DNA of 64,000 nt, from NCBI GenBank assembly GCA_000163695.1, contig GG774889.1, positions 520,042 to 584,041 on the forward strand, written 5' to 3'. Made by a program: the position numbers and the translations under genes. This DNA is from Bacteroidetes oral taxon 274 str. F0058. GTDB lineage: Bacteria > Bacteroidota > Bacteroidia > Bacteroidales > Paludibacteraceae. This document shows, piece by piece, positions 7,522 through 24,765 of the stretch (positions are counted from its first letter, which is position 1; every line of letters starts with the position of its first letter). The notes under the pieces are model-generated. The model was not told where the DNA came from, did no database searches, and worked only from the letters and a program-made list of their open reading frames with translations.

Positions 7522-7633
7522 CTATTGTAAAAAACAGATTGGATATATCAAACAGGGTTTATGTATATTGATATATCCAACTGCTTTTAAGATTAAAAAA
7601 TACTAATTAAAATGGATAGCTTATCGTTCTGTC

Positions 7634-9097: not shown

Positions 9098-9180
9098 TCA
9101 TTTCGGATAAAATAATAGATAAAAGCTATATATAAGGTTCAGATAATATATTTTTATTAACTAAATAATTCGTATAAAAG

Positions 9181-11160
9181 ATGAAAAGAGTTTTTCGAAA
9201 AATGATTATCGCCTTGTTGGCGATATTGTGGGGAGTCTCATCGGTACAGGCACAGAGTGTCAATATGGACCGTTACATTACCCTTACCGTAAAGCAGGGT
9301 GCAGCCGTGCTTATTAATATGGCTTCCAATGCGGCTAATACTCCTATAAAGATAGTAAGTGGCAGCGAAGAGTGGAATATAACCGTTGGTACTCTTTGGA
9401 CAGGGGTAAAGAGTTACACTGCCGGAGCCACCACTATGACGGTATATGGTGATGTTCTGAAATTCGACTGTAACGAGAATATGGAAGATCTTACAGGACT
9501 CGATGTAAGCCACAACGATCTGATGTCAAGTTTGGAATGTACCAATAATTCTCTTACCTCGCTCGACGTAAGTAAAAATGAAAAGCTTATATCACTCCAG
9601 TGTGCGGACAATTTTCTTACCACGCTTGACGTAAGCAGTTGTACTAATTTGAAAACTTTAAATTGCTTCAACAACAACCTTACCACGCTCGACGTAAGTA
9701 AAAATACGCAACTTAGGATAATTTACTGTTTCTCAAATAAACTTACTTCGCTCGACGTAAGTAAGAATACGCAACTGGTGATACTTAATTGTCAAGGTAA
9801 TAAGTTCACAACCGAAACCCTTGATGACCTTTTCTGCTCGTTGCCGCAAAGGAAAGGGTTGCTGACAGGGAGAATAGCGCCCGTTACGAGCTCCTCTTCG
9901 CCCGACAACAGTATGGTGCTTGCCACTAACGGCAATAATGCCACTGCTAAGAATTGGAAAGTCGTATACTATGCCAACAATGCCCCAATTACAGGCTTTA
10001 CCGGCACGAAACAGTGTGAAGGCGGTAGCAATGTCAATATGGACCGTTACATTACGATGTCGGTTACTGAGGGCGACAGTATCAAACTCGATATCTCTGC
10101 CGATGTTGCTGGTACTCAGGTGAAAATATCGAGTGGAGGCGAAGAACAAATCATAACCGTAGGTACCGCCTGGACAGATACTAAAAAGTATGCTGCCAAA
10201 GCCGGAACTATGACTGTCTACGGTAATGTAAATCGATTCAACTGCGGCAAAAACGGTAAAAAAATAACCGGACTTGACATAAGCCACAATACACAACTTA
10301 ACTTATTGTTTTGCGAAGAAAATGATATTCCTTCTCTGGATATAAGTAAAAATACACATTTGGAGTTTCTGGAGTGCTACGACAACAAGATACCTTCATT
10401 AAACTTAAAAAACAGCCCGAAACTGTCGAGATTGAGCTGCTACAGAAATTCCCTTTCTACGCTCGATGTGAGCAATAATACGCTGCTGACATTCTTGAGC
10501 TGTCATACCAATAAACTTACTTCGCTTGACGTGAGCAAAAACACTAATTTGCAAATTCTAAATTGCAGATCGAACCAACTGACTTCGCTCGATGTAAGTA
10601 AAAATACTGAGTTGGAATGGTTGTATTGCTTTGACAACAAGCTATCTTCTCTTGATATAAGTAAGAATATTCATTTAAGTTCGTTGTATTGCTATGGCAA
10701 TAATTTTTCAACTGCTGTTCTCGATGACATTTACTGCTCGTTGCCCGACAGGAAAGGTAAAGACGGAGGTAAAATAGACCCTGCATACAATGCTTCCTCT
10801 CCTGATAAAGATAAAGTACTCGCCTCCAATGGCAACAATGCTATAGCTCGTAACTGGAAAGTGCAATATTTCGAAGATGATTCCGATATTACAGGCTTTA
10901 CCGGCACACATCAGTGCGGAGGTGGTACGGGTATCGATGAAGCGAAAGGCTTACCTGCGCTTGCCGTTTACCCCAATCCCGTCAAAGATATCCTGAATAT
11001 AATTTCCGATACCCCCGTCCACAGCATACGCATATACAACGTATACGGTACGGAAGTAGCCCACGCTACCGATACCAACAGTATCGACGTCTCTCATCTG
11101 CCCGCAGGCGTCTATATGGTGCGTGCCGACGGCAAGGTAACGAGGATTATTAAGGAATAA
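9181..11160 (+). CDS. secreted LRR protein with two modules and a T9SS (Por) C-terminal sorting domain
   Basis: Signal peptide ...SSVQAQ; the N-domain starting SVNMDRYITLTV occurs twice (second copy NVNMDRYITMSV). ~22-aa LRRs (L-TSLDVSKNTxLxxLxCxxNxL), Cys linker ...DDLFCSLPQRKG / ...HQCGGG, and C-terminal domain LAVYPNPVKDILNI...GVYMVRADGKVTRIIKE (Por_Secre_tail-like). Confidence 0.85.
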   Translation: MKRVFRKMIIALLAILWGVSSVQAQSVNMDRYITLTVKQGAAVLINMASNAANTPIKIVSGSEEWNITVGTLWTGVKSYTAGATTMTVYGDVLKFDCNENMEDLTGLDVSHNDLMSSLECTNNSLTSLDVSKNEKLISLQCADNFLTTLDVSSCTNLKTLNCFNNNLTTLDVSKNTQLRIIYCFSNKLTSLDVSKNTQLVILNCQGNKFTTETLDDLFCSLPQRKGLLTGRIAPVTSSSSPDNSMVLATNGNNATAKNWKVVYYANNAPITGFTGTKQCEGGSNVNMDRYITMSVTEGDSIKLDISADVAGTQVKISSGGEEQIITVGTAWTDTKKYAAKAGTMTVYGNVNRFNCGKNGKKITGLDISHNTQLNLLFCEENDIPSLDISKNTHLEFLECYDNKIPSLNLKNSPKLSRLSCYRNSLSTLDVSNNTLLTFLSCHTNKLTSLDVSKNTNLQILNCRSNQLTSLDVSKNTELEWLYCFDNKLSSLDISKNIHLSSLYCYGNNFSTAVLDDIYCSLPDRKGKDGGKIDPAYNASSPDKDKVLASNGNNAIARNWKVQYFEDDSDITGFTGTHQCGGGTGIDEAKGLPALAVYPNPVKDILNIISDTPVHSIRIYNVYGTEVAHATDTNSIDVSHLPAGVYMVRADGKVTRIIKE

Positions 11161-11166
11161 ACATAC

Positions 11167-11200
11167 TGTTAAATCGTTCAGTCGTTGAATTGTTTAACTG
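11167..11200 (+). promoter_or_regulatory. conserved 3'-UTR palindromic element (copy 1 of 10)
   Basis: CTGTTAAATCGTTCAGTCGTTGAATTGTTTAACTG lies directly after the stop codon. A variant of the consensus CTGTTTAAgCGTTCAATCGTTGAACTGTTTAACTG sits at the same place after every array gene. Confidence 0.6.
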
Positions 11201-11215
11201 ATTTTGATAAAAAAA

Positions 11216-11254
11216 CGGGGAGTGGAGTTAGTACCGCTCCTCGTTTTATTTTTT
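11216..11254 (+). terminator. intrinsic terminator of LRR gene 1 (array consensus)
   Basis: CGGGGAGTGGAG...CCGCTCCTCG hairpin followed by TTTTATTTTTT. Near-identical hairpins follow array genes 2 and 6-10; those after genes 3-5 have divergent sequences. Confidence 0.75.
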
Positions 11255-11321
11255 GCGTTGTCTTGGAGAACATTGCGGTTGGTTTTTGTTAAAATAACTT
11301 TCATAATTTTAGCTTTTTTAT

Positions 11322-11329
11322 TAACTTTG
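11322..11329 (+). promoter_or_regulatory. -7 promoter motif TAACTTTG for LRR gene 2
   Basis: The same motif recurs at 14561, 17137, 19002 (TACCTTTG), 20856 (TAATTTTG), 23468, 24674, 27768 (TAACTTCG) and 29277. Confidence 0.55.
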
Positions 11330-11416
11330 CCGCTGCTAAAAAAAATTGAGATTTAAAAAGCGAGTAGTCGAAACACGAATAGTTAGTTTTATTAATCAAA
11401 TAAATATTTACAAAAG

Positions 11417-14362
11417 ATGAAAAGTGTTTTTCAAAAATGTCTTATCGCTCTTTTGGCGATATTGTGGTGTGTCTCCTTGGTGCAGGCACAGAGTGTCAAT
11501 ATGTCTCGTTACATTACGCTGACTGTCGAGAAAGGAGCGGATATATTGCTTGATATTGCTGCCGATGCGGCTAATACTCCTATAAAGATAGTAAGTGGCG
11601 ACAAAGAACAGACTATAACCGTTGGTACGTCGTGGACAGGGGTAAAGAGTTATGCCGCAGGAGATGCTACTATGACGGTCTATGGCGATGCACTGAAGTT
11701 GGATTGCAGTAAAAACGGTGCAAAAGTTACAGGTTTGAATACAAGCAGCAATGCACAATTGCAATTGTTGTTTTGCTACAAAGACTCTATTAGCTCGCTC
11801 GACCTAAGTAATAATGAAGAGCTGAAAAGCTTGCATTGCTTTGGCGACAAACTCACTTCGCTCGATGTAAGTAAAAATAAACAGTTGCAGTGGTTGAAAT
11901 GCCACGACAACCGACTTACCACTATCGACGTAAGCCATAATACGCAATTAAAATATATGACTTGCTATGGCAACGATTTTACTACTGCGGCTTTGGATAA
12001 TATTTATTGCTTATTACCCGACAGGACAGGACAAAAGGCAGGAGAAATACAGCCGTTGCTAAATGCCTCGTCTTCAGAGAAAAACAAGGTACTCGCTACC
12101 AACGGTAACAATGCCATTGCCCGAAACTGGAAAGTGCAGTACTCTCAGAATAGTTCCGTGATAACAGGCTTCACGGGCACTAAGCAGTGTGGCGGCAGTA
12201 GCGGTGTCAATATGGACAGATACATTACTCTGACTGTCGTATCGGGCGAAGAAATCAATCTGAATTTTTTTGCCGATGCCGATAATACGCCGATAAAAAT
12301 AGTGAGTGGTACCAAAGAACAAACCATAACCGTAGGTGCTTCGTGGACAGGTATGAATAAATACATTACTGACGGCAGTACTATGACGGTTTATGGGAAT
12401 GTCCAAAAATTCAGTTGCGGAGGCAATGGAAAGAATATAACGGGGCTTGATGTAAGCCACAATTCGCAATTGACCATATTATATTGCGATAAAAACGCTA
12501 TTATCTCGCTTAATGTAAGCGGCAATACGGAGTTAAAAAATTTAGATTGTAAAGAGAACGCTATTGCATCTCTCGATTTAAGTAACTGCAAACAGTTGAA
12601 GTGGGTATATTGTAACAAAAATGCTCTTACTTCGCTCAACGTAAGTAAATGTGAACAGTTGGAACTGTTGAAATGCTATGAGAATAAACTTACTTCTCTT
12701 GATGTTGGTAATAATGCTATGTTGAAGATGTTATATTGCGAAGAAAATGCTCTTACATCTCTCGACGTAAGCCGCAATACAGAGTTGATAAGCCTGTATT
12801 GTCAACAAAACTCTATTTCTTCCCTTAACTTGGGTGGTAACACAAAGTTGCGAATATTGTTTTGTTACGAAAATGCTCTTAACTCACTCGATGTAAGTAA
12901 ATGTACACAGTTGGAATGGTTGTATTGTGCGGATAATCCTATTTCTACTCTCGACATAAGTCATAATAAGCATTTAAGTACATTGTATTGCTATGGCAAC
13001 AACTTTACTACTGCCGCCCTCGATGATATTTACTGCTCGCTACCCGACAGGAAAGGCAAGAGCAAAGGGGATATAGCTCCTCTGCTAAATGCTTCGTCTG
13101 TCGACAAAAGCAAGGTGCTTGCTACCAATGGCAACAATGCCGCTGTTAGGGGTTGGAAGGCAATATATTACGAAGGCAACTCGGAGATTACAGGCTTTAC
13201 CGGTACTAAACAGTGTGGCGGCGGTAGCGGTGTCAATATGGACAGATACATTACGCTGACCGTCGATAAAGGTAAGGAAATATTTCTAAGCGTCTATGCC
13301 TCCGCAGATAATACTCCTATAAAAATAGTTAGCGGCGACAAAGAGTATACCTTCAATACAGGCGCCGGCTGGACAAAAATGAGCAAATACACTGCCGGAG
13401 CCGGTACTATGACAATCTACGGTAATGTATGGCAATTCAACTGTCGTGATAATGCCGCAAATATTACGGGCTTGGATGCGAGCCACAATGCAGAATTACA
13501 GACATTGATATGTAATAATAATGCTATTGCCTCACTCAATGTAAGCGGCAATACGGACTTGATAGGTCTATACTGTCTGGGTAATGCTCTGACAACGCTC
13601 GATGTGAGCAAAAATATGAAATTGGCGAATTTGTATTGCTATGAAAATTCACTTACTACCCTCGATATAGGCAACAATACGGAGTTGGCTTTTCTGGATT
13701 GCCGCTCGAACAAACTCACCTCTCTCGACGTTAGCAAGAATAAGAAGCTGAAGACGCTCGATTGTCGCTCCAATAAGCTTACCGCAATTGATTTAAGTAA
13801 CAATACGGAGTTGGAAAGTTTCCATTGTTCCGAAAACGCTCTTTCTACGCTCGACCTGAGCCACAATTCCGAATTAAATTCGTTGTATTGCTACGGCAAC
13901 AACTTTACTACTGCTGCCCTTGACGACATTTACTGCTCTCTGCCAAACAGAGGCGGACAAGCAATAATAGGGTTGATACAACCTCTACTCAATGCTTCGT
14001 CGCCCGATAAAGACAAAGTGCTTGCTACCAACGGCAACAATGCCGCTACTAAAAACTGGGCTCTGACTTATTATGAAAATGATGCCGAGATTACGGGCTT
14101 TACCGGCACACATCAGTGCGGAGGCGGTACAGGCATCGACGAAACTAAAGACTTACTCTCACTTGCCGTCTACCCGAACCCCGTCAAAGACATTCTGAAT
14201 ATAGCTACCGACAAACCCGTACACAACATACGCATATACAACGTATACGGCACGGAAGTAGCCCACGCAACCGATACGAACAGTATCAATGTATCGCACC
14301 TGCCCGCAGGTGTATATATGGTGCGTGCCGACGGTAAGGTAGCAAGGATAATCAAGGAATAA
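11417..14362 (+). CDS. secreted LRR protein with three modules and a T9SS C-terminal domain
   Basis: 981 aa; the N-domain motif GVNMDRYITLTV restarts near nt 12200 and 13222; three LRR blocks, each followed by the linker YCxLPDR.G...ATNGNNA...ITGFTGTxQCGG; C-terminal domain identical in type to gene 1. Confidence 0.85.
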   Translation: MKSVFQKCLIALLAILWCVSLVQAQSVNMSRYITLTVEKGADILLDIAADAANTPIKIVSGDKEQTITVGTSWTGVKSYAAGDATMTVYGDALKLDCSKNGAKVTGLNTSSNAQLQLLFCYKDSISSLDLSNNEELKSLHCFGDKLTSLDVSKNKQLQWLKCHDNRLTTIDVSHNTQLKYMTCYGNDFTTAALDNIYCLLPDRTGQKAGEIQPLLNASSSEKNKVLATNGNNAIARNWKVQYSQNSSVITGFTGTKQCGGSSGVNMDRYITLTVVSGEEINLNFFADADNTPIKIVSGTKEQTITVGASWTGMNKYITDGSTMTVYGNVQKFSCGGNGKNITGLDVSHNSQLTILYCDKNAIISLNVSGNTELKNLDCKENAIASLDLSNCKQLKWVYCNKNALTSLNVSKCEQLELLKCYENKLTSLDVGNNAMLKMLYCEENALTSLDVSRNTELISLYCQQNSISSLNLGGNTKLRILFCYENALNSLDVSKCTQLEWLYCADNPISTLDISHNKHLSTLYCYGNNFTTAALDDIYCSLPDRKGKSKGDIAPLLNASSVDKSKVLATNGNNAAVRGWKAIYYEGNSEITGFTGTKQCGGGSGVNMDRYITLTVDKGKEIFLSVYASADNTPIKIVSGDKEYTFNTGAGWTKMSKYTAGAGTMTIYGNVWQFNCRDNAANITGLDASHNAELQTLICNNNAIASLNVSGNTDLIGLYCLGNALTTLDVSKNMKLANLYCYENSLTTLDIGNNTELAFLDCRSNKLTSLDVSKNKKLKTLDCRSNKLTAIDLSNNTELESFHCSENALSTLDLSHNSELNSLYCYGNNFTTAALDDIYCSLPNRGGQAIIGLIQPLLNASSPDKDKVLATNGNNAATKNWALTYYENDAEITGFTGTHQCGGGTGIDETKDLLSLAVYPNPVKDILNIATDKPVHNIRIYNVYGTEVAHATDTNSINVSHLPAGVYMVRADGKVARIIKE

Positions 14363-14416
14363 TACTGTTTAAGCGTTCAATCGTTGAACTGTTTAACTGA
14401 TGTTTTCATTAAAAAA

Positions 14417-14448
14417 CGGGGAGTGGAGTTGATACCGCTCCTCGTTTT
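14417..14448 (+). terminator. intrinsic terminator of LRR gene 2
   Basis: AACGGGGAGTGGAGTTGATACCGCTCCTCGTTTT. Confidence 0.7.
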
Positions 14449-14656
14449 GTGATTTGCGTTGTCTTGGCGGACATTACGGCTCGTTTTTTACTCTGATGTT
14501 TACCTACTTAAACTATATGATTTTTTGTCGAAATAATTTTCATAATTTAAGCTTTTTTATTAACTTTGCGCCGCTGCTAAAAAAATTGAGATTTAAAAAG
14601 CGAGCAGTCGAAACACGAATAGTTAGTTTTATTAATCAAATAAATTTTTAAAAAAG

Positions 14657-16951
14657 ATGAAAAGTGTTTTTCAAAAATGTCTTATCGCCCTCTTGGCGAT
14701 ATTGTGGGGTGTCTCATCGGTGCAGGCACAGAGTGTCAATATGTCTCGTTACATCACGATGACCGTGAAAAGCGGAGAGAACATAGAACTTGACTTCTCG
14801 GGAGACGCTGACGGTACGCAGGTGAAAATAGTTAGCGGTGCCCAAGAGCAAACCGTAACGGTAGGTACCTCTTGGATAGGTCCTCAAAGGTATACAGCCG
14901 GAGCGGGTACTATGACTGTCTACGGCAATGTATCGAAGTTTAATTGCAATAGTAACGTTGCAAAAATCACAGGACTCGATGTAAGCCACAATTCGGAGTT
15001 GAAAAGTTTGCTGTGTTACAAAAACAAACTCTCGTCGCTCGATGTAAGCAAATGCGGAAAACTGACGGAGCTGGATTGCGGTATTAATTCTCTTACCTCG
15101 CTGAATTTAAGTGGCTGCGGAGAATTGATTGAATTAGATTGTTCGAGCAATAGCCTCACCTCGCTGGACGTAACTCGCAATACGAAATTGACGGATTTGA
15201 GTTGCTACGACAATAAACTTACCTCGATAGATGTAAGCAAAAATACTCAATTGATACTTTTTAGTTGCAGCCTCAACTCTATTGCCTCGCTTGATGTAAA
15301 GAACAATACCAAGTTGGAAGAGTTTTTCTGCCATAGCAATTCGCTCACCTCTCTCGACATAAGTAGCAATACGAGATTGGTAAGGTTGAATTGCAGTAAC
15401 AACAAAATCGAATCGCTCGATTTAAGCAATAATATGAAATTGCAATTTCTCTTTTGCTTTGCCAATTCGCTTACTTCGCTCAAATTTAACCCCGATTCGA
15501 AGTTAAATTCGTTGTATTGCTATGACAATAAATTTACCACTGCCGCTCTCGACGATATTTATTGCTCGCTGCCCGACAGAAAAGGGGTAACCGCAGGAGT
15601 GATGCAACCCTTACATGATGCTTCGTCGCCCGACAAAGATATAGTACTTGCTACCAACGGCAGCAATGCTACTTCCAAAAATTGGAAGATTCTGTATTTT
15701 AAGGATTTTACCGACATTAAGGGCTTTACCGGCACTAAACAGTGTGGCGGAGGTAGCGGTGTCAATATGGAGCGTTACATAACGTTTGCCGTAAAGAAAG
15801 GAGCAAAAATAGAAATCGATTTTGCGGCAGACGAAGAAAACACACCAGTTAAGATAGTGAGCGGTACAACCGACCAGACCATAACCGTAGGTATCGACTG
15901 GGTAGGGTCGATGGATTATGTAGCCGGTGACGCTACTATGACAGTATATGGTAATGTGCGTAGAGTAGACTGCAACGAGAATAAGGGAAATATAACCGCC
16001 CTCGATGCAAGCCACAACGTACCACTTGCGTATATCAATTGCGACAACAACTCTATCTCATCGCTCAATGTGAGCAAAAATACGCAATTGAGTGCACTGT
16101 ACTGTTCCGATAACTCTCTTTCTACGCTCGATGTGAGCAATAACGGACAGCTGGAGTATCTCAACTGTTATAACAACAAGCTTACACAGCTCGACTTGAA
16201 AAATAATACGAAACTGACATTCTTGAACTGCGGTAGAAATACTATCTCTTCGCTCGATTTAAGTAAAAATACGCAATTGAGCATATTGTACTGTAATGAT
16301 AATAAACTTACTTCGCTCGGTATCGACCATAATATCCTTTTGAAGAGTTTTGGTTGTAACAACAACTTGCTCTCGTCTCTCGATGTGAGCAAAAATACAC
16401 AATTGGATATACTGTATTGCTACACCAATCGTCTCACTAAGCTCGATGTAAGCAAAAATACAAAATTGAAAAGATTGTATTGCCATACGAACAATTTTAC
16501 TACTGCCGCCCTCGATGATATTTACTGCTCGCTGCCCGACAGAAAAGGACAAACAGAGGGACAAATACAACCGTTGTTCAACGCCTCGTCTGCCGACAAA
16601 AGCAAGGTTCTTGCTACCAACGGCAACAACGCTATTGCCAAGGGATGGAAGATACAGTATTTCGAGAAAAACACCGATATTACGGGCTTTACGGGCACAC
16701 ATCAGTGCGGAGGCGGTACAGGTATCGATGAAGCGAAAGGCTTACCTGCGCTTGCCGTTTACCCCAATCCCGTAAAAGATGTCTTGAATATAGCTACCGA
16801 CAAACCGGTACACAGCATACGCATATACAATGTATACGGCACGGAAGTAGCCCACGCCACCGATACGAACAGTGTCAATGTATCACACCTACCCGCAGGT
16901 GTCTATATGGTGCGTGCCGACGGCAAGGTAGCAAGGATAATCAAGGAATAA
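14657..16951 (+). CDS. secreted LRR protein with two modules and a T9SS C-terminal domain
   Basis: 764 aa; the first 37 aa are identical to genes 2 and 8; second module starts at GVNMERYITFAV; C-terminal domain conserved. Confidence 0.85.
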   Translation: MKSVFQKCLIALLAILWGVSSVQAQSVNMSRYITMTVKSGENIELDFSGDADGTQVKIVSGAQEQTVTVGTSWIGPQRYTAGAGTMTVYGNVSKFNCNSNVAKITGLDVSHNSELKSLLCYKNKLSSLDVSKCGKLTELDCGINSLTSLNLSGCGELIELDCSSNSLTSLDVTRNTKLTDLSCYDNKLTSIDVSKNTQLILFSCSLNSIASLDVKNNTKLEEFFCHSNSLTSLDISSNTRLVRLNCSNNKIESLDLSNNMKLQFLFCFANSLTSLKFNPDSKLNSLYCYDNKFTTAALDDIYCSLPDRKGVTAGVMQPLHDASSPDKDIVLATNGSNATSKNWKILYFKDFTDIKGFTGTKQCGGGSGVNMERYITFAVKKGAKIEIDFAADEENTPVKIVSGTTDQTITVGIDWVGSMDYVAGDATMTVYGNVRRVDCNENKGNITALDASHNVPLAYINCDNNSISSLNVSKNTQLSALYCSDNSLSTLDVSNNGQLEYLNCYNNKLTQLDLKNNTKLTFLNCGRNTISSLDLSKNTQLSILYCNDNKLTSLGIDHNILLKSFGCNNNLLSSLDVSKNTQLDILYCYTNRLTKLDVSKNTKLKRLYCHTNNFTTAALDDIYCSLPDRKGQTEGQIQPLFNASSADKSKVLATNGNNAIAKGWKIQYFEKNTDITGFTGTHQCGGGTGIDEAKGLPALAVYPNPVKDVLNIATDKPVHSIRIYNVYGTEVAHATDTNSVNVSHLPAGVYMVRADGKVARIIKE

Positions 16952-17189
16952 TACTGTTTAAGCGTTTGATTGTATAATCGTTTAACTGAATTGTAAAACA
17001 AAAAGCGAGGAGCGGCACAATGCTGTTTCTCGTTTTTTATATTCTATCGAGTGTATCCGTAGTGGAGTAAGTTGTATCTATGCGGGAATATGTATGTGGG
17101 GTTGCAGTTATAGTTTTTACAAATTAATAAATTTACTAACTTTGCCGCCCCAAAAGATACTTATATTAATCAACAAATCTCATACAAAA

Positions 17190-18707
17190 ATGAATAGACT
17201 TTTTCGTAAGACAATTGTCGCCCTATTGGCGATAGTATGGAGTGCCTCATCGTTGCAGGCACAGGAAGTAAATATGTCCCGCTACATCACGCTGACGGTA
17301 AAGCAGGGTACAACCGTACATTTCGATATTTGGGCAGACGCTCCGAATACTCCCATAAAAGTGATAAGTGGCGATAAAGAGCGAGAAATAACCGCAGGTA
17401 CGGAATGGACAAGTATAAAAAACTACATTGCCGGAGCCGGTACTATGACGATTTACGGTAATGTACAGAAGTTTGATTGCGACGAGAATAAAGAAAAAAT
17501 TGTCGGTGTCGACCTAACCCACAATACAAAACTGACCGAGTTGGGTTGTTCGGGAAATCGTATTGCTACCCTCGATGTAAGCCAGAGCACACAGTTGGAA
17601 GCATTGTATTGTAGTGGCAATCGCCTTGCAGCTCTCGATGTTAGTAAAAATACGCAACTGAAAAGTTTGAACTGTTTCGATAATAGTCTTGCAGCTCTCG
17701 ATGTCAGTAAAAATACACTACTATTGTATTTGAACTGCGGCATAAACTCTATTACCTCCCTCGATGTGAGTCATAATACGGAATTGACGAATCTGTACTG
17801 TCATTCCAATCGTATTGCCTCGCTCGACGTCAGTAAAAATACGAAGTTGGTACAATTGCATTGCTTCGAAAACTCTATTGCATCACTCGACTTGAGCCGA
17901 AATACTGCATTGACTTTATTGTATTGCTACAAAAATGCTCTTACCTCGCTCGACCTAAGAAACAATACAAATGTCGAAAGATTGATTTGCTTCGAAAACT
18001 CTCTTACCTCACTCGACGTAAGTAATAGCAAGCAACTTACGCTCTTGAATTGCCACACAAACCGCCTTACGTCGCTCGACCTGAGCCACAACGCCAAACT
18101 GGGTAAGCTGAGTTGCTACAAAAATGCTCTTACGTCGCTCGATATGAGTAATAATCCGGAATTGGAATGGATATATTGTTTCGAAAACCCTCTTGCAGAG
18201 TTCAAATTAAGAAACAATATGCGTCTGAGGTCGTTGCATTGTTACGACAATAAACTCACTACCGCCGACTTAGACGATCTTTTCTGCTCGCTGCCCGATA
18301 GAAACGGACAGGCAGAGGGAAGGATAGGTATCCTCTTCAATGCGTCGTCTGCCGAGAATGCCAAAGTACTCGCCACCAACGGCAGAAACGCCGTTGCAAA
18401 AAACTGGACGGTACAGTATTACGAAGATAAATCGGAAATCAAGGGTTTCACAGGTAACCATCAGTGTACGACTACAGGCTTGGACGATATAAAAAACAAA
18501 CAGGACATATCCGTCTACCCGAACCCCGTAGAAGACGTCCTGAACATAACTTCCGACAAACCAGTGCACAGCATACGCTTATACAACGTGTACGGCACGG
18601 AGGTACTCCGAGCTGCCGATACGAACAGCGTCGACGTCTCTCATCTGCCCGCAGGCGTCTATATGGTGCGTGCCGACGGCAAGGTAGTGAGGGTAATCAA
18701 GAAATAA
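17190..18707 (+). CDS. secreted LRR protein with one module and a T9SS C-terminal domain
   Basis: Start taken at MNRLFRK (17190), where the signal peptide begins; the annotated 17094 start lies upstream of the -7 promoter motif at 17137. About 14 LRRs; C-terminal domain ISVYPNPVEDVLNITSDKPVHSIRLYNVYGTEVLRAADT... Confidence 0.8.
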   Translation: MNRLFRKTIVALLAIVWSASSLQAQEVNMSRYITLTVKQGTTVHFDIWADAPNTPIKVISGDKEREITAGTEWTSIKNYIAGAGTMTIYGNVQKFDCDENKEKIVGVDLTHNTKLTELGCSGNRIATLDVSQSTQLEALYCSGNRLAALDVSKNTQLKSLNCFDNSLAALDVSKNTLLLYLNCGINSITSLDVSHNTELTNLYCHSNRIASLDVSKNTKLVQLHCFENSIASLDLSRNTALTLLYCYKNALTSLDLRNNTNVERLICFENSLTSLDVSNSKQLTLLNCHTNRLTSLDLSHNAKLGKLSCYKNALTSLDMSNNPELEWIYCFENPLAEFKLRNNMRLRSLHCYDNKLTTADLDDLFCSLPDRNGQAEGRIGILFNASSAENAKVLATNGRNAVAKNWTVQYYEDKSEIKGFTGNHQCTTTGLDDIKNKQDISVYPNPVEDVLNITSDKPVHSIRLYNVYGTEVLRAADTNSVDVSHLPAGVYMVRADGKVVRVIKK

Positions 18708-19046
18708 AGTGCTTGTAAGGGGGGATTTGTATGTTTACCCTTTTATAAGATAAAATATGGGCGAGCCACATCGGTTCGCCTTTCTGTTATGCATATTTGT
18801 CGGAGTATATACAAGGGTATGGAGTGATATAAATAGGCTTACCGTTAGGTTTTGTTTGTCGTCCCAGTCTGTACGACTATTCTGCAAGATAATCTCTTGC
18901 TTTATAGGCATTTATGAGAGTGTTTGTGTTTGTGAATGGCTTGATATTAATATTCAATTGACACGTAGGGGTACATTCGAGGAATTTTTATTACCTTTGC
19001 CGCCCAAAAATAAATACTTTTATTTATCAACAAATCACATAAAAAA

Positions 19047-20636
19047 ATGAATAAACTTTTTCAAAAAACTATTATCGCCCTGCTGGCGATAGTGTGGAGT
19101 GCCGCCACCATTCAGGCACAGAATGTAAATACTGATCGTTACATTAAGCTGACCGTAGAGCAAGGACAGAAGATTAAGTTAAGGCTGTGGGCAGATGCCG
19201 CAGGCACATCGGTAAAAATCGTAAGCGGTGCCCAAGAGCAGACAATAACGGTAGGTTCGGCGTGGTCTTCCGCTCAAGATTATACTGCCGGCGACGGTAC
19301 TATGACGATATACGGTAATGTGCAGAGATTAAACTGTGCAGGGAACGGCAAAAATATCATAGATATCGATCTTAGCCATAATACGCAGATGACTATGCTC
19401 TATTGCGAAGAGAATGCTCTCTCTACTCTCGACATTAGTAAAAATACTAAATTGACGAGATTGAGTTGCCAAAAGAATGCTCTTACTGCGCTCGACATCA
19501 GTCATAATAAGCAGCTGGAGTATTTAAGCTGCTTTTCGAACAAACTTAAAGCCCTCGACGTAAGTAGTAATGAACAGTTAGTATGGCTGTATTGTTACGA
19601 TAATGACTTTACCACAGCCTCTTTGGATGACCTTTTCTGCTCGCTACCCGATAGAGAAAATAAAAGTGTAGGAAAAATAGGACTCGTATTTAATGCTGCC
19701 TCTCCCGAAAAAGACAAAGTACTCGCCACCAATGGCAACAACGCTACCTCAAAAAATTGGAAGTTACAGTATTATGACGATGATATTGACATTAAAGGAT
19801 TTAAGGGTACATACTCGTGCGGTAGTAATGTTAATATGTCTCGTTACATAACGTTGACCGTACAAAAGGGTGCCGATATACAACTTGACCTCTGGGCGGA
19901 TGCTGCCGGTACTCCTGTGAAAATAGTGAGCGGCGACAGCGAGAAAGTTATAACCATAGGTACGGATTGGATGGGACCAAAGAGTTATGAAGCCGAAGCT
20001 AATACTATGACAATATACGGCAATGTGCAGAGGTTCGATTGTGACGATAATTCCGAAAATATTACAGGGATCGATATAAGCCACAATACGGAGTTGCAGC
20101 GTATGCTCTGTAACGGTAATGCTCTGACGGCTCTCGATATAAGTCACAATAAGCAATTGAGTTATCTGGCTTGCTACGGCAATAAGTTTACTGCCGCTAC
20201 CTTAGACGACATCTATTGCTCGCTACCCGACAGGAAAGGACAAACCGCAGGACAAATACTACCGTTGTTGGGAGGAAGTTCTTCCGACAACGGTAAGGTG
20301 CTTGCTACCAACGGCAGCAATGCTACTGCCAGAAATTGGAAAATACAGTATTATAGCGACGAAGCTGATATTACGGGCTTTACGGGTACACATTCGTGCA
20401 CAACCGGTATAGAAGATATAAAAAATACGAATGACATATCCGTTTACCCGAACCCTGTCAAAGACATTCTGAATATAGCCTCCGACAAACCTGTACACAG
20501 CATACGCATATACAACGTATACGGCACGGAAGTAGCTCACGCTTCCGATACGAACAGCGTCGACGTATCTCATCTGCCCGCAGGTGTCTATATGGTGCGT
20601 GCCGACGGCAAAGTAGTGAGGGTTATTAAGAAATAA
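19047..20636 (+). CDS. secreted LRR protein with two short modules and a T9SS C-terminal domain
   Basis: 529 aa; second module starts at NVNMSRYITLTV; each LRR block is short (~4-5 repeats); C-terminal domain conserved. Confidence 0.85.
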   Translation: MNKLFQKTIIALLAIVWSAATIQAQNVNTDRYIKLTVEQGQKIKLRLWADAAGTSVKIVSGAQEQTITVGSAWSSAQDYTAGDGTMTIYGNVQRLNCAGNGKNIIDIDLSHNTQMTMLYCEENALSTLDISKNTKLTRLSCQKNALTALDISHNKQLEYLSCFSNKLKALDVSSNEQLVWLYCYDNDFTTASLDDLFCSLPDRENKSVGKIGLVFNAASPEKDKVLATNGNNATSKNWKLQYYDDDIDIKGFKGTYSCGSNVNMSRYITLTVQKGADIQLDLWADAAGTPVKIVSGDSEKVITIGTDWMGPKSYEAEANTMTIYGNVQRFDCDDNSENITGIDISHNTELQRMLCNGNALTALDISHNKQLSYLACYGNKFTAATLDDIYCSLPDRKGQTAGQILPLLGGSSSDNGKVLATNGSNATARNWKIQYYSDEADITGFTGTHSCTTGIEDIKNTNDISVYPNPVKDILNIASDKPVHSIRIYNVYGTEVAHASDTNSVDVSHLPAGVYMVRADGKVVRVIKK

Positions 20637-20909
20637 ACATACCGGTTAAGCGTTCAGTCGCGTTGAGCTGTTTAACTGAATTGTAAAATAAAAAGGGAGG
20701 AGTAGTACAAGGCGACTGCTCCTCTCTTTATTGTTTGAGTGCTCGCACCTTACAATAATTAATATTTTTATTGAAAAACAAATTGTGGCTGTGTGTCAGA
20801 TGTTTATCTCTGGCGGCTTCTGAATTATCGATGCTATATTAAAAGAAATTTTTACTAATTTTGTCCTCCGAAAATACACTCATATTTAACTAATAATTTC
20901 AAACTAAAA

Positions 20910-23270
20910 ATGAATAGATTTTTTCAAAAGGTTCTTATCGCCGTGCTGGCGATAATAGTGTGTGGTGCTTCATCATTGCGGGCACAAAGTGTCAATATGG
21001 ATCGCTATATGACGATTACCGTCAAGCAAGGAGCAAGTATAAACTTCAGTATGTGGGCAGATGCTGCCGATACTCAGGTAAAAATAGTTAGCGGTAGCAA
21101 CGAGCAGACCATACCGGTAGATGCTTCTTGGACAGCTATGAATGATTATGTTGCCGGAGCCACTACTATAAAGATTTATGGTAATGTGCTTAAATTAAAC
21201 TGTTTTAGAAACGGACTTAACGTTACGGGATTGGACGTGAGCCACAATACTCAGTTGCAGGAATTAAATTGCTATAGCAATGGTCTTACCTCACTCGATA
21301 TAAGTGGAAATGCACAATTGGAGCTGTTGAGTTGCTATGACAATAAACTTACATCGCTGAATCTGAGTAACAGTCTGCAGCTGACGGAATTAAACTGTCA
21401 AGATAATTTTCTTACATCTCTCGATGTAAGTCGCAATACGAAACTGAAAGAATTATATTGTTACAAAAACTCTCTTACATCTCTTGTCTTAGGTGATAAT
21501 GCGAATTTAGAATGGTTGTATTGCTTCGACAACTCTATTTCTAAGCTCGACCTGAGCAAAAGTACACAGTTGGAACGATTGTTTTGTTATAATAATTCTA
21601 TTTCCACACTCGACCTAAGTCACAATACACAATTGCTATCATTGAATTGCCATGGCAATAAATTTACCACCGCCTCTATCGACGATATTTACTGTTCGCT
21701 GCCCGACAGAAAAGGAAATCCCACAGGAATGATATATCTTTTGTTTAATGCTTCGTCTGCCGATAAAGACAAGGTGCTCGCTTCGAATGGCGGTAATGCG
21801 ACCAATAAAAACTGGGAGGTGAAGTATTATGAAAGCAACTCGAATATTACGGGTTTTACCGGTACGCATCCTTGCGGAGGAGGCAGCGGGGTAAACACAG
21901 ACCGCTACATAACGCTCACAGTGAAGGAGCGTAAACAGATATGGCTCAACTTATGGGCAGATGCCGCCGATACTCAGGTAAAAATAGTTAGCGGCAGCAA
22001 CGAGAAGACCGTAACCGTTGGCGACAAATGGACAGAATGGAAAGATTATACCGCAGGTGCAGCTACTATGACCATTTACGGTAATGTGCGAAAACTCGAT
22101 TGTAGCAACAATAACACGAACATTACGGGCTTGGATGCAAGCCACAATGCACAATTGCAAGAATTATTGTGTTATAGCAATTCTCTTACTTCTCTCGACT
22201 TGAGCCACAATACTCAGCTAAAAGTGTTGGGTTGTTTCGCCAATTCTATTACCTCGCTCGATGTAAGCCACAATGCACAGCTGACCGAACTGGATTGCTC
22301 GGAGAACAAGATTTCGTCGCTCGACGTAAGCAAAAATACACAGTTGGTAAAGTTGTTTTGTCTGAAAAACTCCATCTCCACACTCGACGTAAGCCACGAT
22401 ACGCAATTGACATCGCTGAATTGCTCCGAGAATAAGATTTCGTCACTCGATGTGAGCAAAAATGTGAAGTTGGAGAAACTGCATTGTAACAAGAATGCCC
22501 TTACCTCAATCGACGTGAGCAAGAATTTACAACTGACGGGACTGGATTGCTCTGCAAACAAACTTAAGTCTATCGACGTAAGTAAAAATACGGTGTTGGA
22601 ATGGCTGTATTGTTTCGATAACTCCATCACCTCGCTTGATGTGAAGAACAATACGCAATTGAAAAATTTACGTTGCTTCAACAACAGTCTTGCCACGCTC
22701 GACGTAAGTAAAAATACTGAGCTCGAATGGCTTTATTGCTATGGGAACTCCCTTGCAGCTATCGATATAAGTAAAAATACGCAGTTGAAAGACTTCGTTT
22801 GCTATGGCAATAAATTTACTACTGCCTCTCTCGACGATATTTACTGTTCGCTACCCGACAGAAACGGTAAAGCAACTGGTATAATACGACCCGTACTCGA
22901 TGCTTCGGCACCCGATAACAGCAAGGCTCTTGCCTCTAATGGCAAAAACGCTACCGACAAAAACTGGAAGATAATGTATTATAAAGGCAATTCCGATATT
23001 ACGGGCTTTACGGGCACATATCAGTGCGGAGGCGGCACAGGCATCGACGAAACGAAAGACTCACCTGCACTTGCCGTCTACCCGAACCCCGTCAAAGATA
23101 TACTGAATATAGCTACCGACAAACCTGTACACAGCATACGCATATACAACGTGTATGGCACGGAAGTAGCCCAAGCCACCGATACCGACAGTATAGACCT
23201 CTCTCATCTGCCGTCAGGCGTCTATATGGTGCGTGCCGACGGCAAAGTAACGAGGATTATTAAGGAATAA
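20910..23270 (+). CDS. secreted LRR protein with two modules and a T9SS C-terminal domain
   Basis: 786 aa; the second LRR block contains internally duplicated repeats (...LDCSENKISSLDVSKNTQL... occurs twice) and shares an ~130-nt block with gene 10. Confidence 0.85.
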   Translation: MNRFFQKVLIAVLAIIVCGASSLRAQSVNMDRYMTITVKQGASINFSMWADAADTQVKIVSGSNEQTIPVDASWTAMNDYVAGATTIKIYGNVLKLNCFRNGLNVTGLDVSHNTQLQELNCYSNGLTSLDISGNAQLELLSCYDNKLTSLNLSNSLQLTELNCQDNFLTSLDVSRNTKLKELYCYKNSLTSLVLGDNANLEWLYCFDNSISKLDLSKSTQLERLFCYNNSISTLDLSHNTQLLSLNCHGNKFTTASIDDIYCSLPDRKGNPTGMIYLLFNASSADKDKVLASNGGNATNKNWEVKYYESNSNITGFTGTHPCGGGSGVNTDRYITLTVKERKQIWLNLWADAADTQVKIVSGSNEKTVTVGDKWTEWKDYTAGAATMTIYGNVRKLDCSNNNTNITGLDASHNAQLQELLCYSNSLTSLDLSHNTQLKVLGCFANSITSLDVSHNAQLTELDCSENKISSLDVSKNTQLVKLFCLKNSISTLDVSHDTQLTSLNCSENKISSLDVSKNVKLEKLHCNKNALTSIDVSKNLQLTGLDCSANKLKSIDVSKNTVLEWLYCFDNSITSLDVKNNTQLKNLRCFNNSLATLDVSKNTELEWLYCYGNSLAAIDISKNTQLKDFVCYGNKFTTASLDDIYCSLPDRNGKATGIIRPVLDASAPDNSKALASNGKNATDKNWKIMYYKGNSDITGFTGTYQCGGGTGIDETKDSPALAVYPNPVKDILNIATDKPVHSIRIYNVYGTEVAQATDTDSIDLSHLPSGVYMVRADGKVTRIIKE

Positions 23271-23558
23271 ATAGACTGTTTAAACGTTCAGTCGTTGAAT
23301 TGTTTAACTGATTTTGATAAAAAACGGGGAGTAGCGTAGAACTGCTCCTCGTTTTATTCTTTGCGTTGTCTTAGTTAATATTGTGGTTTATTTTTACTGA
23401 TTTTTACCTACTAAAACTATGGTAATTGTTTATGCAAAAATAACTTTTATAATTTGAGCTATTTTATTAACTTTGCGTCCCGAAAAATTTGTTTAAAAAA
23501 TACCCGAATTATAAACTAAAAATTATAACTAATATATTAACTAAAATTTTACACAAAA

Positions 23559-24473
23559 ATGCAGAAGTTTTTTGTAACGATTGCTATTGCCATTATAGCG
23601 GCGATATGGAGTATGCCTTTGCAGGCAGAAGATTACAACATCAAAATCGGAGGTAAGGCTATAACTTCCGATAACTACAAAAAAATTACCAAAGAAAACG
23701 GCTTTGATGCCATAAAGAGTGGAACGGTAAGCTACGCCCACGATACGCGTACCCTGACTCTTATTGACGTCATTATAGAGGCGGATAAAAATGTCAACCC
23801 AATAGACATCATCAACACCGAGGAATTGTACACCATTAAGCTCGAGGGTGATAACAAAGTTACTGCCGTAGGAAAATGTAGGGGAATAAACAACAGCAAA
23901 GGTTCGCTGCGTATTACGGGCAGCGGAAAAGTCTCGGTCTCCGGCGATATCTCAATATTCGCTATGAAGAGGCTGACTTTCGATGGAGGCTGTAATGTCA
24001 ATGCAAGTGCTCAGGTAATGGCTTACAACGAAGATATTATAATAGACGGTGTGGAAATGTATGTTAAGGAGAATGGATATCCTGCATTCTGGGCAAGAAC
24101 AGGTATCGAACTCAAAGGTGGTAGCGTGGTAGTCTATCCGGAAGATGCAGTCGTAGGTCAGAAGACAAGTGCAAGCGGCTCTTATTACACATTTATGAGA
24201 AATGAGGAGCATTGTACAGAGGTACGCATAGGTCGCGGCACAGGCATCGACGAAGCGAAAAACTCGCCTTCACTCGCCGTCTACCCGAACCCCGTCAAAG
24301 ATATACTGAATATAGCTACCGACAAACCGGTACACAGCATACGCATATACAACGTATACGGCTCGGAAGTACTCCGAGCTGCCGATACCAACCGTATCGA
24401 CGTATCTCATCTGCCCGCAGGCGTCTATATGGTGAGTGCCGACGGCAAGGTAACGAGGATTATTAAGAAATAA
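23559..24473 (+). CDS. non-LRR secreted protein carrying the same T9SS C-terminal domain (passenger-swapped array member)
   Basis: 304 aa; signal peptide, then a ~220-aa passenger with no LRR and no N-domain motif (GGKAITSDNYKK...VVVYPEDAVVGQK...), then RGTGIDEAKNSPSLAVYPNPVKDILNIATDKPVHSIRIYNVYGSEV...RIIKK. The flanking spacer elements match the rest of the array. Confidence 0.8.
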   Translation: MQKFFVTIAIAIIAAIWSMPLQAEDYNIKIGGKAITSDNYKKITKENGFDAIKSGTVSYAHDTRTLTLIDVIIEADKNVNPIDIINTEELYTIKLEGDNKVTAVGKCRGINNSKGSLRITGSGKVSVSGDISIFAMKRLTFDGGCNVNASAQVMAYNEDIIIDGVEMYVKENGYPAFWARTGIELKGGSVVVYPEDAVVGQKTSASGSYYTFMRNEEHCTEVRIGRGTGIDEAKNSPSLAVYPNPVKDILNIATDKPVHSIRIYNVYGSEVLRAADTNRIDVSHLPAGVYMVSADGKVTRIIKK

Positions 24474-24765
24474 ATATACTGTTTAAACGTTCAGTCGTTG
24501 AATTGTTTAACTGATTATGATAAAAAAACGGGGAGTGGAGTTAATACCGCTCCTCGTTTTGTGATTTGCGTTGTCTTAGTTAATATTGCGGTTGGTTTTT
24601 GCTGATAGTTGCCCACTTTAAATTGTAGTAATTGTTTTTGCAGAAATAACTTTTATAATTTAAGCTATTTTATTAACTTTGCCGCTGCTAATGCGGGAAA
24701 AGAAGAAGCATAAAAATAGGTTCAGAATAATATTTTTTTTATTCATTAAATAATTCGTACAGAAG

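What the first reader, a model, noticed from the sequence alone, without database searches (positions are those of the whole stretch)
13215..13480. Mosaic sequence sharing between non-adjacent paralogs (gene-conversion footprints)
The third N-domain of gene 2 (13215-13480) is ~85% nt-identical to the third N-domain of gene 8 (26240-26500): DKGKEIFLSVYASADNTPIKIVSGDKEYTFN versus DKGKDIYLSVYASADNTPIKVVSGNKEYTFN. Other N-domains are only ~50% identical. An LRR block of gene 6 (~22260-22400, LDCSENKISSLDVSKNTQLVKLFCLKNSI) recurs in gene 10 (~29880-30010). The first 37 codons of genes 2, 3 and 8 are identical. This patchwork implies ongoing segmental exchange among array members.
Basis: seen in the sequence. 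Interest (0 to 1): 0.6.

Follow-up and report, generated by a model that had tools for sequence, protein, structure and literature searches.

The report
Module-shuffling array of surface LRR genes

Summary
The main observation holds. The other 135 N-domain pairs are 56-79% identical. The gene 6 / gene 10 LRR block is also the top outlier of its class. The "identical first 37 codons" are only near-identical (5-9 nt differences).

Synonymous divergence is 0.44 in the N-domain block and saturated in both flanks. A permutation test supports the fragment (global p 0.0025-0.03); PHI is not significant. The three segment types diverge at similar rates between strains (3.1-4.2%). The block therefore has a separate history, but an old one, since it is present in every strain examined.

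The current process shows up when strains are compared. At least 7 array haplotypes exist in independent metagenome assemblies. In them, whole modules (N-domain + LRRs + cap) are re-assorted among genes, with crossovers at conserved module junctions. In one strain two copies of module 8.2, 9.8 kb apart, share a 626-nt tract with no differences.

This is recombination among tandem paralogues encoding InlJ-like, T9SS-secreted LRR proteins. The closest described case is the Flavobacterium psychrophilum LRR locus. I class it as a new member of a known kind, of moderate interest.

The parts
9181..30634 (+). Tandem array of 10 same-strand genes: g1 9181-11160, g2 11417-14362, g3 14657-16951, g4 17187-18707, g5 19047-20636, g6 20910-23270, g7 23559-24473, g8 24766-27525, g9 27869-29077, g10 29363-30634. 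Nine are built as signal peptide + 1-3 modules [66-codon N-domain | 2-12 LRRs of 21 aa | ~70-aa cap] + T9SS C-terminal domain. g7 has an unrelated body with the same C-terminal domain.
   Evidence: architecture, exact 21-aa register; Pfam LRR_4, Por_Secre_tail; AlphaFold model of g9, pLDDT 89, best PDB match InlJ 3bz5
13202..13441 (+). g2 copy of the shared block: linker plus the third N-domain of g2 (module 2.3)
   Evidence: 87.5% identical to 26230-26469. Identity falls to about 60% within 30 nt on the LRR side. dS 0.44 against saturated flanks. Permutation p 0.0025-0.03.
26230..26469 (+). g8 copy of the shared block: linker plus the third N-domain of g8 (module 8.3)
   Evidence: Same evidence as its partner. 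A 44-nt exact match lies at 13211-13254 / 26239-26282.
22242..22385 (+). g6 copy of the shared LRR block (module 6.2, LRR units 3-5)
   Evidence: 83% identical to 29855-29998; dN 0.077, dS 0.79; flanks 48-54% identical with saturated dS
29855..29998 (+). g10 copy of the shared LRR block (module 10.1, LRR units 4-6)
11326..11539 (+). g2 promoter region, 5' UTR and signal peptide. It is shared with g3 (14566-14779, 87%), and its proximal part from 11395 is shared with g8 (24744-24903, 85%). g1 (9162-9309) is related. The g8 upstream region is itself a mosaic: g2/g3-like distally and g1-like proximally.
   Evidence: TAnnTTTG motif upstream of 9 of 10 genes
24224..24609 (+). g7 T9SS C-terminal domain plus 3' flank (palindrome and terminator). 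This is one example of the conserved 3' cassette present at all 10 genes: g1 10880-11296, g2 14084-14408, g3 16673-16997, g4 18504-18717, g5 20431-20663, g6 22990-23338, g8 27247-27529, g9 28811-29091, g10 30438-30675.
   Evidence: About 82-89% nt identity between paralogues, extending past the stop codons. C-terminal-domain dS has a median of 0.56 and a minimum of 0.21 (g6/g7), against 1.3-1.5 for N-domains and caps.
25423..26238 (+). Module 8.2 of g8. In haplotypes H-A and H-C a second copy occupies the slot that module 3.2 holds in other haplotypes ('gene D', upstream of g4).
15761..16702 (+). Module 3.2 of g3. In other strains it is the second module of gene A (behind 1.1) or of gene D (behind module X).
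13232..14114 (+). Module 2.3 of g2. It is absent from the 680-aa and 873-aa alleles of g2. In H-B it is the second module of gene A. In H-E it lies to the right of g7.
14735..15739 (+). Module 3.1 of g3. In haplotypes H-A, H-B, H-D and H-E it stands alone as a 443-aa gene.

Best explanation
The window carries a tandem array of paralogous genes for T9SS-secreted, InlJ-like (21-residue, cysteine-ladder) leucine-rich-repeat surface proteins, in an uncultured Bacteroidales bacterium. Each protein is a string of 1-3 modules (beta-rich N-domain, LRR solenoid, cap) between a signal peptide and a T9SS sorting domain.

Four kinds of sequence stay similar among paralogues: the promoter/signal-peptide region, the cap-end/linker/N-start junction, the C-terminal domain, and the 3' terminator region. 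These carry exact matches of 20-54 nt. I infer that they act as substrates for homologous recombination, that is, unequal crossing-over and non-reciprocal gene conversion. Recombination at these points deletes, duplicates, transposes and replaces whole modules, and occasionally parts of modules.

The g2.3/g8.3 N-domain block and the g6/g10 LRR block are old sub-module products of this process, fixed before the sampled strains diverged. The same process is visible as polymorphism between strains.

Shown here: the mosaic structure, the unequal synonymous ages of adjacent segments, the haplotypes, the positions of the crossovers, and the shared tract. Inferred: dependence on RecA-type homologous recombination, and that selection on a surface-exposed binding protein (by host, immune system or phage) maintains the diversity.
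For: Within the window:
- The N-domain pair 2.3/8.3 is 88% identical against 65 +/- 4.5% for the other pairs (z = 5.05, rank 1 of 136). Its flanking LRRs sit at the background level (z about 0).
- dS is 0.44 in the block and saturated in the preceding cap and in LRR units 1-7.
- A GENECONV-like permutation test picks the whole N-domain as the top fragment, with global p 0.0025-0.03 at every mismatch penalty tried.
- Orthologous N-domains, LRRs and caps diverge at similar rates between strains (3.6, 3.1 and 4.2%). Rate differences therefore cannot explain the contrast.
- The C-terminal domains and 3' flanks of all 10 genes are about 82-89% identical, with median dS 0.56, against 1.3-1.5 for N-domains and caps. 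This includes g7, whose body is unrelated.

Between strains:
- At least 7 haplotypes exist with the same modules (93-99% nt) in different genes.
- H-A was found in 5 samples and H-B in 2. The 873-aa and 680-aa alleles of g2 appear in many protein clusters.
- Crossovers map to the cap-end GFTGT motif and the linker.
- In H-A, module 8.2 is present both in gene D and in g8 on a single contig. The two copies show 0 differences in 626 nt but 11 in the first 183 nt.
- Independent gene D copies confirm that the two parts of this module have discordant histories.

Alternatives to homologous recombination:
- The array has no convincing inverted repeats.
- The spacers hold no gene fragments.
- No recombinase gene was found among the ORFs checked next to the array.
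Against: - PHI on the 17-module alignment is not significant (p = 0.28), probably because the sites are saturated.
- The cited footprints are old, so the window alone cannot show current activity.
- All comparison sequences are metagenome assemblies. Haplotypes H-D, H-E and H-F each rest on one contig.
- The exact zero-difference count in the 626-nt tract could be inflated if the assembler collapsed variants.
- Crossover intervals between present-day 'parents' are only 1-15 nt, so the length of homology actually used is not known.
- No pair of near-identical strains with different arrays was found. The closest such pair is 98.6% identical, so the rate of exchange is unknown.
- Array synonymous divergence between strains (0.11-0.20) exceeds that of the left flank (0.013-0.037). 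Part of the haplotype diversity could therefore have been imported from diverged lineages.
Confidence: 0.8

Rival explanations
1. No exchange took place. The shared blocks are the parts of anciently duplicated modules that are under the strongest purifying selection, while the LRRs diverged faster.
For: N-domains are on average slightly more conserved than LRRs (65% vs 58-62%). dN in the block is low (0.067).
Against: Synonymous divergence also differs: 0.44 in the block, saturated in both flanks. Only this pair among 136 shows the contrast (z = 3.7 for N-domain minus LRR identity). Between strains, N-domains, LRRs and caps diverge at the same rate. Strain comparison shows modules physically re-assorted.
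Confidence: 0.03
2. The strain-to-strain 'haplotypes' are chimeric metagenome contigs, mis-joined at the conserved C-terminal-domain and junction repeats. They are not real genomes.
For: All comparison loci are short-read metagenome assemblies. Haplotypes H-D (L019), H-E (L020) and H-F (L021) are single contigs. One contig (L017) ends just upstream of g4, inside the C-terminal domain of the preceding gene.
Against: Paralogous repeats are at most 89% identical, with exact matches of at most about 54 nt. That is shorter than the final k-mers of the k141 assemblies among these contigs. H-A recurs in 5 samples from different assemblies and H-B in 2. The 873-, 680-, 660- and 443-aa gene products recur in many clusters and contigs. 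The junctions fall cleanly in frame at module borders and give intact ORFs.
Confidence: 0.05
3. Most of the diversity comes from another route. Whole array haplotypes, old and kept by balancing selection or evolved in diverged lineages, are imported by homologous recombination in the conserved flanks. Intra-array exchange would then be rare and ancient.
For: Between-strain dS is 0.11-0.20 in array genes but 0.013-0.037 in the left-flank genes. Identity drops sharply at about W9035 in two different haplotypes. No near-identical strains with different arrays were found.
Against: Import explains how haplotypes spread, not how they arose. The same modules sit in different genes, so intra-array recombination must have produced the haplotypes at some point. 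The 626-nt tract shared by two paralogous copies in one genome is younger than strain divergence.
Confidence: 0.3
4. The array is a programmed diversification device: a site-specific recombinase shufflon, invertible promoters, a diversity-generating retroelement, or a system of silent cassettes and one expression site.
For: It is a surface-protein family in Bacteroidales, an order that, to my knowledge, has invertible promoters and shufflons. Whole-module replacement resembles cassette conversion.
Against: All genes lie on one strand and there are no convincing inverted repeats. The ORFs next to the array that were checked gave no recombinase or reverse-transcriptase hit. Nine of ten genes have their own TAnnTTTG promoter-like motif, and all ten have a signal peptide and an intact ORF, so there are no silent cassettes. 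Crossover points vary: the GFTGT motif, inside a cap, and inside LRRs.
Confidence: 0.03

Closest known systems
Flavobacterium psychrophilum tandem LRR surface-protein locus (Duchaud 2007, as cited in PMC10392669; PMC10392669; PMC8400371)
   Same: Same phylum (Bacteroidota). A roughly 21-kb same-strand array of up to 19-23 cell-surface LRR protein genes with 2-14 LRRs each. Every strain differs in gene number and length while the flanks are conserved. There are no mobile-element genes. The published interpretation is 'extensive recombination', possibly tied to adhesion or phage receptors.
   Different: In F. psychrophilum, gene fragments fill the spacers and junctions show 1-5 bp microhomology, read as illegitimate recombination. 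Here the spacers are short (235-343 nt) and free of fragments. The proteins are chains of 1-3 complete N-domain/LRR/cap modules. The exchanged unit is a whole module, with crossovers in conserved motif-coding sequence. Sequence homology between the two loci was not tested here.
Listeria monocytogenes InlJ (PDB 3bz5), the cysteine-ladder internalin class
   Same: 21-residue LRRs with a conserved Cys in each repeat (consensus LxxLxCxxNxLtsLDvSxNtx). InlJ is the best structural match of the g9 model (Foldseek E 1.6e-11). NCBIfam internalin_J partly matches a related protein at 57207-58721.
   Different: There is no helical internalin N-cap, Ig-like inter-repeat region or LPXTG anchor. Instead there is a 66-residue beta-rich N-domain, a roughly 70-residue alpha/beta cap and a T9SS sorting domain. 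The domain set can also repeat up to three times in one protein.
Gene-conversion antigenic variation systems (my recollection; not checked in the literature here): Neisseria pilE/pilS, Borrelia vlsE, Treponema tprK, Anaplasma msp2
   Same: Non-reciprocal copying of segments between paralogous surface-protein genes, with conserved sequences flanking variable cassettes.
   Different: Those systems have one expression site and promoterless silent cassettes, and they switch at high frequency within a clone. Here every gene looks expressible, and switching within a clone has not been shown.
Eukaryotic clustered LRR immune genes: plant NLR clusters such as RPP8 (PMC6771003), TLR1/TLR6 (PMC2077338)
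   Same: Tandem LRR paralogues with patchwork similarity produced by intergenic exchange and gene conversion.
   Different: The link is one of process only. The kingdom, the protein role and the recombination machinery all differ.

Membership tests
T9SS type A cargo (Por_Secre_tail, PF18962 / TIGR04183) | C-terminal sorting domain of about 70-80 residues matching the family model above threshold | tested here: met
   PF18962 scored 45.8-49.7 bits (cut-off 27) in g2, g7 and g8. The C-terminal 77 residues are conserved in all 10 genes. The g9 model has a beta-sandwich at residues 347-401.
T9SS type A cargo (Por_Secre_tail, PF18962 / TIGR04183) | N-terminal Sec signal peptide | tested here: met
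   Hydrophobic N-termini ending in ..QAQ(S/E/N/D)V in the nine LRR genes and ..LQAED in g7. This was judged by eye; no predictor was run.
T9SS type A cargo (Por_Secre_tail, PF18962 / TIGR04183) | The host genome encodes a T9SS machinery | not testable with these tools
   Only a 64-kb window is available and no T9SS core genes were seen in it.
InlJ-type (cysteine-ladder) LRR proteins | 21-residue LRR period with a conserved cysteine in each repeat | tested here: met
   All 117 units are exactly 63 nt with no indels. The Cys is conserved in the consensus. The top PDB match is 3bz5, InlJ.
InlJ-type (cysteine-ladder) LRR proteins | Internalin domain set: helical N-cap, Ig-like inter-repeat domain, LPXTG or GW anchoring | tested here: not met
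   The model shows a beta-strand N-domain (residues 33-97), a helix/strand cap (254-306) and a T9SS C-terminal domain. No LPXTG motif is present in the translations. It works like an internalin-type LRR binder but is not a Listeria-type internalin.
Hypervariable tandem LRR surface-protein locus of the F. psychrophilum type | Same-strand tandem array of LRR surface-protein genes that differ in repeat number | tested here: met
   10 genes; 2-12 LRRs per module
Hypervariable tandem LRR surface-protein locus of the F. psychrophilum type | Gene number, length and composition differ between strains while the flanks are conserved | tested here: met
   At least 7 haplotypes. The left flank is 99.1-99.5% identical.
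Hypervariable tandem LRR surface-protein locus of the F. psychrophilum type | Spacers made of broken LRR gene fragments joined at 1-5 bp microhomologies | tested here: not met
   tblastn of array proteins against all window spacers, and against the one long spacer in L020, found nothing. Crossovers lie in conserved coding motifs.
Hypervariable tandem LRR surface-protein locus of the F. psychrophilum type | Sequence homology to the F. psychrophilum proteins | not tested
Cassette-type antigenic variation (one expression site plus silent copies) | Promoterless or truncated donor cassettes and a single expressed locus | tested here: not met
   Every gene has a start codon, a signal peptide, an intact ORF and a terminator. 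Nine of ten have a TAnnTTTG motif 42-88 nt upstream, against 0.12 expected per 160 nt.
Site-specific inversion shufflon or invertible promoter | Inverted repeats flanking the switched segment, and a nearby tyrosine or serine recombinase | tested here: not met
   Only weak AT-rich inverted repeats were found. The neighbouring ORFs that were checked are TonB-receptor-like, DUF6850, DUF4876, a Band-7 protein and a 449-aa ORF with only a sub-threshold Zn_ribbon_IS1595 hit (E 0.005, below cut-off). Not every ORF in the window was scanned.

The most novel reading that the evidence does not exclude
The array could be a fast combinatorial diversification device. Module-cassette conversion between fully expressed paralogues would re-tool surface LRR binders within a lineage on ecological timescales, for example under phage or antibody pressure. 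In F. psychrophilum, LRR-locus changes were reported after a few days of phage challenge (Castillo 2015, as cited in PMC10392669). The conserved junctions would then be kept as recombination sites.
Probability: 0.12. Interest if true: 0.75.

Novelty: new member of a known kind. Interest (0 to 1): 0.45.

Why it matters
Surface LRR proteins secreted by the T9SS are candidate adhesins, and in the F. psychrophilum case they have been proposed as adhesins or phage receptors. This locus shows how an uncultured Bacteroidales species builds many different multi-module binders from a shared set of modules. It also gives defined haplotypes, crossover points and one young conversion tract that can be followed in long-read or time-series data. 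The locus is a useful marker for strain tracking. It is also a caution for short-read assembly and for gene-level pangenome counts. The process itself, recombination among tandem surface-protein paralogues, is well known, so the result extends a known pattern and does not overturn anything.

Tried and rejected
- The PHI test on the 17-module alignment was not significant (p = 0.28). I treat it as uninformative at this level of saturation.
- The exact-protein look-up for g5 found nothing.
- The genome-contig scan with g7 returned only a distant C-terminal-domain match in a Rikenella MAG.
- Cluster look-ups gave no organism names. PurF homologues place the organism only as uncultured Bacteroidales: 88% to a Porphyromonadaceae MAG and 73% to Alistipes.
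- I searched the 120 best g2 homologues for an outgroup carrying the 2.3/8.3-type N-domain. None lay outside this species, so the direction of the old transfer is undetermined.
- I looked for near-identical strains with different arrays. L006 and L007 share an identical g8 protein, but their DNA is only 98.6% identical.
- My first 'previous cap' background was noisy because linker lengths differ. I relied on the in-register pair and on dS instead.
- The g4 dN/dS row used the wrong frame and is discarded.
- The inverted-repeat scan gave nothing convincing.
Full report
**What is there.** Window positions 9181-30634 hold ten same-strand genes. Nine share one plan:
- a signal peptide;
- one to three modules, each made of a 66-codon N-domain (no indels among the 17 copies), 2-12 LRRs of exactly 21 residues, and a roughly 70-residue cap ending in ..ITGFTGT(K/H)QCGGG;
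- a T9SS sorting domain (Pfam Por_Secre_tail).

g7 has an unrelated body but the same C-terminal domain. An AlphaFold model of the single-module protein g9 is confident (pLDDT 89.3). It shows a beta-strand N-domain, an LRR solenoid, a helix/strand cap and a C-terminal beta-sandwich. Its best PDB match is Listeria InlJ, the 'cysteine ladder' internalin. This fits the conserved Cys in every 21-residue repeat.

Nine of ten genes have a TAnnTTTG motif 42-88 nt upstream of the start codon; the chance expectation is 0.12 per 160 nt. By my recollection this matches the Bacteroidetes -7 promoter element. Each gene also has a conserved palindrome and a terminator-like hairpin downstream. The genes therefore look individually expressed. 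PurF homologues place the organism only as an uncultured Bacteroidales.

**Checking the observation.**
The refined block 13202-13441 vs 26230-26469 is 87.5% identical.
- Over the N-domain alone the pair is 87.9% identical. The other 135 pairs range from 56 to 79% (mean 65.4, sd 4.5), giving z = 5.05.
- 'About 50%' understates the background, but the outlier is real.
- The g6/g10 LRR block (22242-22385 vs 29855-29998) is 83% identical. It is the best of 3282 three-unit comparisons.
- The 'identical first 37 codons' are near-identical only, with 5-9 differences in 111 nt.

**Do the blocks have a separate history?** Identity along the g2.3/g8.3 diagonal drops from about 88% to about 60% within 30 nt at the N-domain/LRR border.
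- Synonymous divergence is 0.44 in the block. It is beyond the range of the Nei-Gojobori estimator in the preceding cap and in LRR units 1-7. The flanks sit at the background level for all pairs.
- A GENECONV-style test finds the best-scoring run of matches at polymorphic sites and permutes the columns. It picks the whole N-domain of this pair, with global p 0.0025-0.03 at every mismatch penalty.
- PHI is not significant (p = 0.28). I attribute this to saturation.
- Rate differences do not explain the contrast. Across 92 orthologous module pairs between strains, N-domains, LRRs and caps diverge by 3.6, 3.1 and 4.2%.
- The g6/g10 block shows the same contrast, with dS 0.79.

Both blocks are older than strain divergence. 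Array dS between strains is 0.11-0.20. The 2.3-type and 8.3-type N-domains also remain about 85-89% alike in every strain and protein cluster seen.

**The gene ends.** The only other paralogous stretches of at least 85% identity over 90 nt are:
- the C-terminal domain with its 3' flank, in all ten genes including g7;
- the 5' ends of g1, g2, g3 and g8, and of g4 and g5;
- short N-domain pieces of g1.1/g2.1 and g5.2/g8.1.

C-terminal-domain dS between paralogues has a median of 0.56 and a minimum of 0.21, for g6/g7. The medians for N-domains and caps are 1.3 and 1.5. Similarity continues into non-coding DNA. The g8 upstream region is itself a mosaic of g2/g3-like and g1-like parts. Exact matches of 30-54 nt between paralogues are concentrated in these regions and at the module junctions. 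One is a 44-nt match in front of both 2.3 and 8.3.

**Evidence from other strains.** Homologues of g2 include full-length orthologues (95-97%). They also include 873-, 680-, 660- and 639-aa proteins that carry only some g2 modules.

Fetching their contigs, and running a g7-anchored metagenome scan, gave at least seven arrangements of the same modules at 93-99% nt identity. Written as module order, with '|' marking gene borders:
- **H-W** (window, L016): 1.1 1.2 | 2.1 2.2 2.3 | 3.1 3.2 | 4 | 5 | 6 | g7 | 8.1 8.2 8.3 | 9 | 10
- **H-A** (L001 + L018, which are one contig; also L010-13): 1.1 3.2 | 2.1 2.2 2.3 | 3.1 | X 8.2 | 4 ... 8.1 8.2 8.3 | 9 | 10
- **H-B** (L004, L005): 1.1 2.3 | 3.1 | 2.1 2.2 | X 3.2 | 4 ...
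- **H-C** (L003): 8.1' 2.1 2.2 | X 8.2 | 4 ..., with g1 and the neighbouring receptor operon missing
- **H-D** (L019): 1.2 | 3.1 | 4 ... g7 | 9 | 8 ...
- **H-E** (L020): the block '1.1' 2.3 | 3.1' lies to the right of g7, with extra modules
- **H-F** (L021): a gene whose LRR array is chimeric (part 8.3-like, part 3.2)

H-A occurs in five samples and H-B in two. The right half of the array (g4 to g10) is structurally constant in six of the eight contigs that extend past g7. L019 and L020 are rearranged to the right of g7. Three-way alignments place five of nine crossovers in or next to the cap-end GFTGT motif. One lies inside a cap and the others lie near the junction.

**A young conversion tract.** In H-A, module 8.2 is present twice on one contig, in gene D and in g8, 9.8 kb apart.
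- The two copies have no differences over columns 184-809 (626 nt), but 11 differences in the first 183 nt.
- In the tract, this strain's g8 copy differs from the window's g8 copy at 23 sites. It differs from independent gene D copies (L003, L010) at only 6-10 sites.
- In the 5' part the affinities reverse: 5 differences against 10-11.
- Runs tests on the 29 diagnostic sites give p = 0.003 for two strains.

This is a non-reciprocal exchange between non-adjacent paralogues that is younger than strain divergence. The caveat is that the exact zero could be helped by variant collapsing in the assembler. The discordance with independent copies does not depend on that zero.

**Mechanism.**
- Shown: mosaic structure, unequal synonymous ages of adjacent segments, re-assorted modules, crossovers at conserved sequence, and a shared tract.
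- Inferred: homologous recombination (unequal crossing-over for deletions and duplications, gene conversion for replacements) using the conserved junctions and gene ends.

The observed haplotypes can be related to one another by a few deletions, duplications and module replacements between these junctions. I did not try to prove a specific order of events.

Nothing points to a programmed system. There are no convincing inverted repeats. The ORFs next to the array that were checked gave no recombinase or reverse-transcriptase hit. There are no silent cassettes or gene fragments in the spacers.

Array genes are under purifying selection overall (dN/dS 0.12-0.30). Their synonymous divergence between strains is 3-10 times that of the left flank, and the change occurs at about position 9035. 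This fits long-lived or imported haplotypes at a surface-antigen locus.

**Comparison with what is known.** The nearest described case is the F. psychrophilum LRR locus. It is a strain-variable tandem array of cell-surface LRR genes with 'extensive signatures of recombination' (PMC10392669; PMC8400371). This locus shares the array, the strain variability and the lack of mobile elements.

It differs in three ways. Its proteins are multi-module. Its spacers are clean. Its crossovers lie in conserved coding motifs, whereas the F. psychrophilum junctions are microhomology joins of fragments. Homology between the two protein families was not tested.

The LRR type is InlJ-like, but the other domains are not those of Listeria internalins.

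**Verdict.** This is a new member of a known kind, of moderate interest.

Noticed in passing
window 30635-30860; L006:15986-17736 (also L007-L009, L017, L018): Directly right of g10, several strains carry a roughly 2.2-kb insertion. It encodes the PADLOC candidate defence pair PDC-M29 (an AAA_15 ATPase, E 2e-194, and a 168-aa partner, E 2e-63). The window and L016 lack it.
   Followed up: partly
window 57207-58721 (-): A further LRR protein with a T9SS sorting domain (504 aa) lies 27 kb outside the array. It has a partial NCBIfam internalin_J match (3e-58).
   Followed up: no
window 2970-11160 vs L003:2330-2840: In haplotype H-C the TonB-receptor-like / DUF6850 / DUF4876 operon and g1 are absent. 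The 873-aa chimeric gene lies about 400 nt downstream of the last matching sequence (about window position 2946).
   Followed up: partly
window ~9035 (left edge of the array): Identity to other strains drops from 99.1-99.5% (positions 2836-9035) to 94-96% at this point in two different haplotypes. Between-strain dS is 0.013-0.037 in the left-flank genes against 0.11-0.20 in array genes.
   Followed up: partly
window 11161-11260, 14363-14460, 23271-23370, 24474-24570 and the equivalent 3' flanks: Nine of the ten array genes (all but g4) are followed by a conserved palindrome (GTTCAnTCGTTGAAC-like); all ten have a terminator-like hairpin. In those nine the hairpin stem (CGGGGAG/CTCCTCG) is conserved while the loop varies, which looks like functional conservation of the structure.
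   Followed up: no
L001:14939-15720, L004:12411-13157 (module X); L020:15678-17135 and 17404-18190: Other strains contain modules with no counterpart in the window (best identity 57-69%). The species' module pool is therefore larger than the 17 modules seen here.
   Followed up: no
window 22278-22600 (g6 module 6.2): Within g6, LRR units 4, 6 and 8 resemble each other (76-78% nt; motif CSENKISSLDVSKN recurs). This suggests internal two-unit duplications.
   Followed up: no
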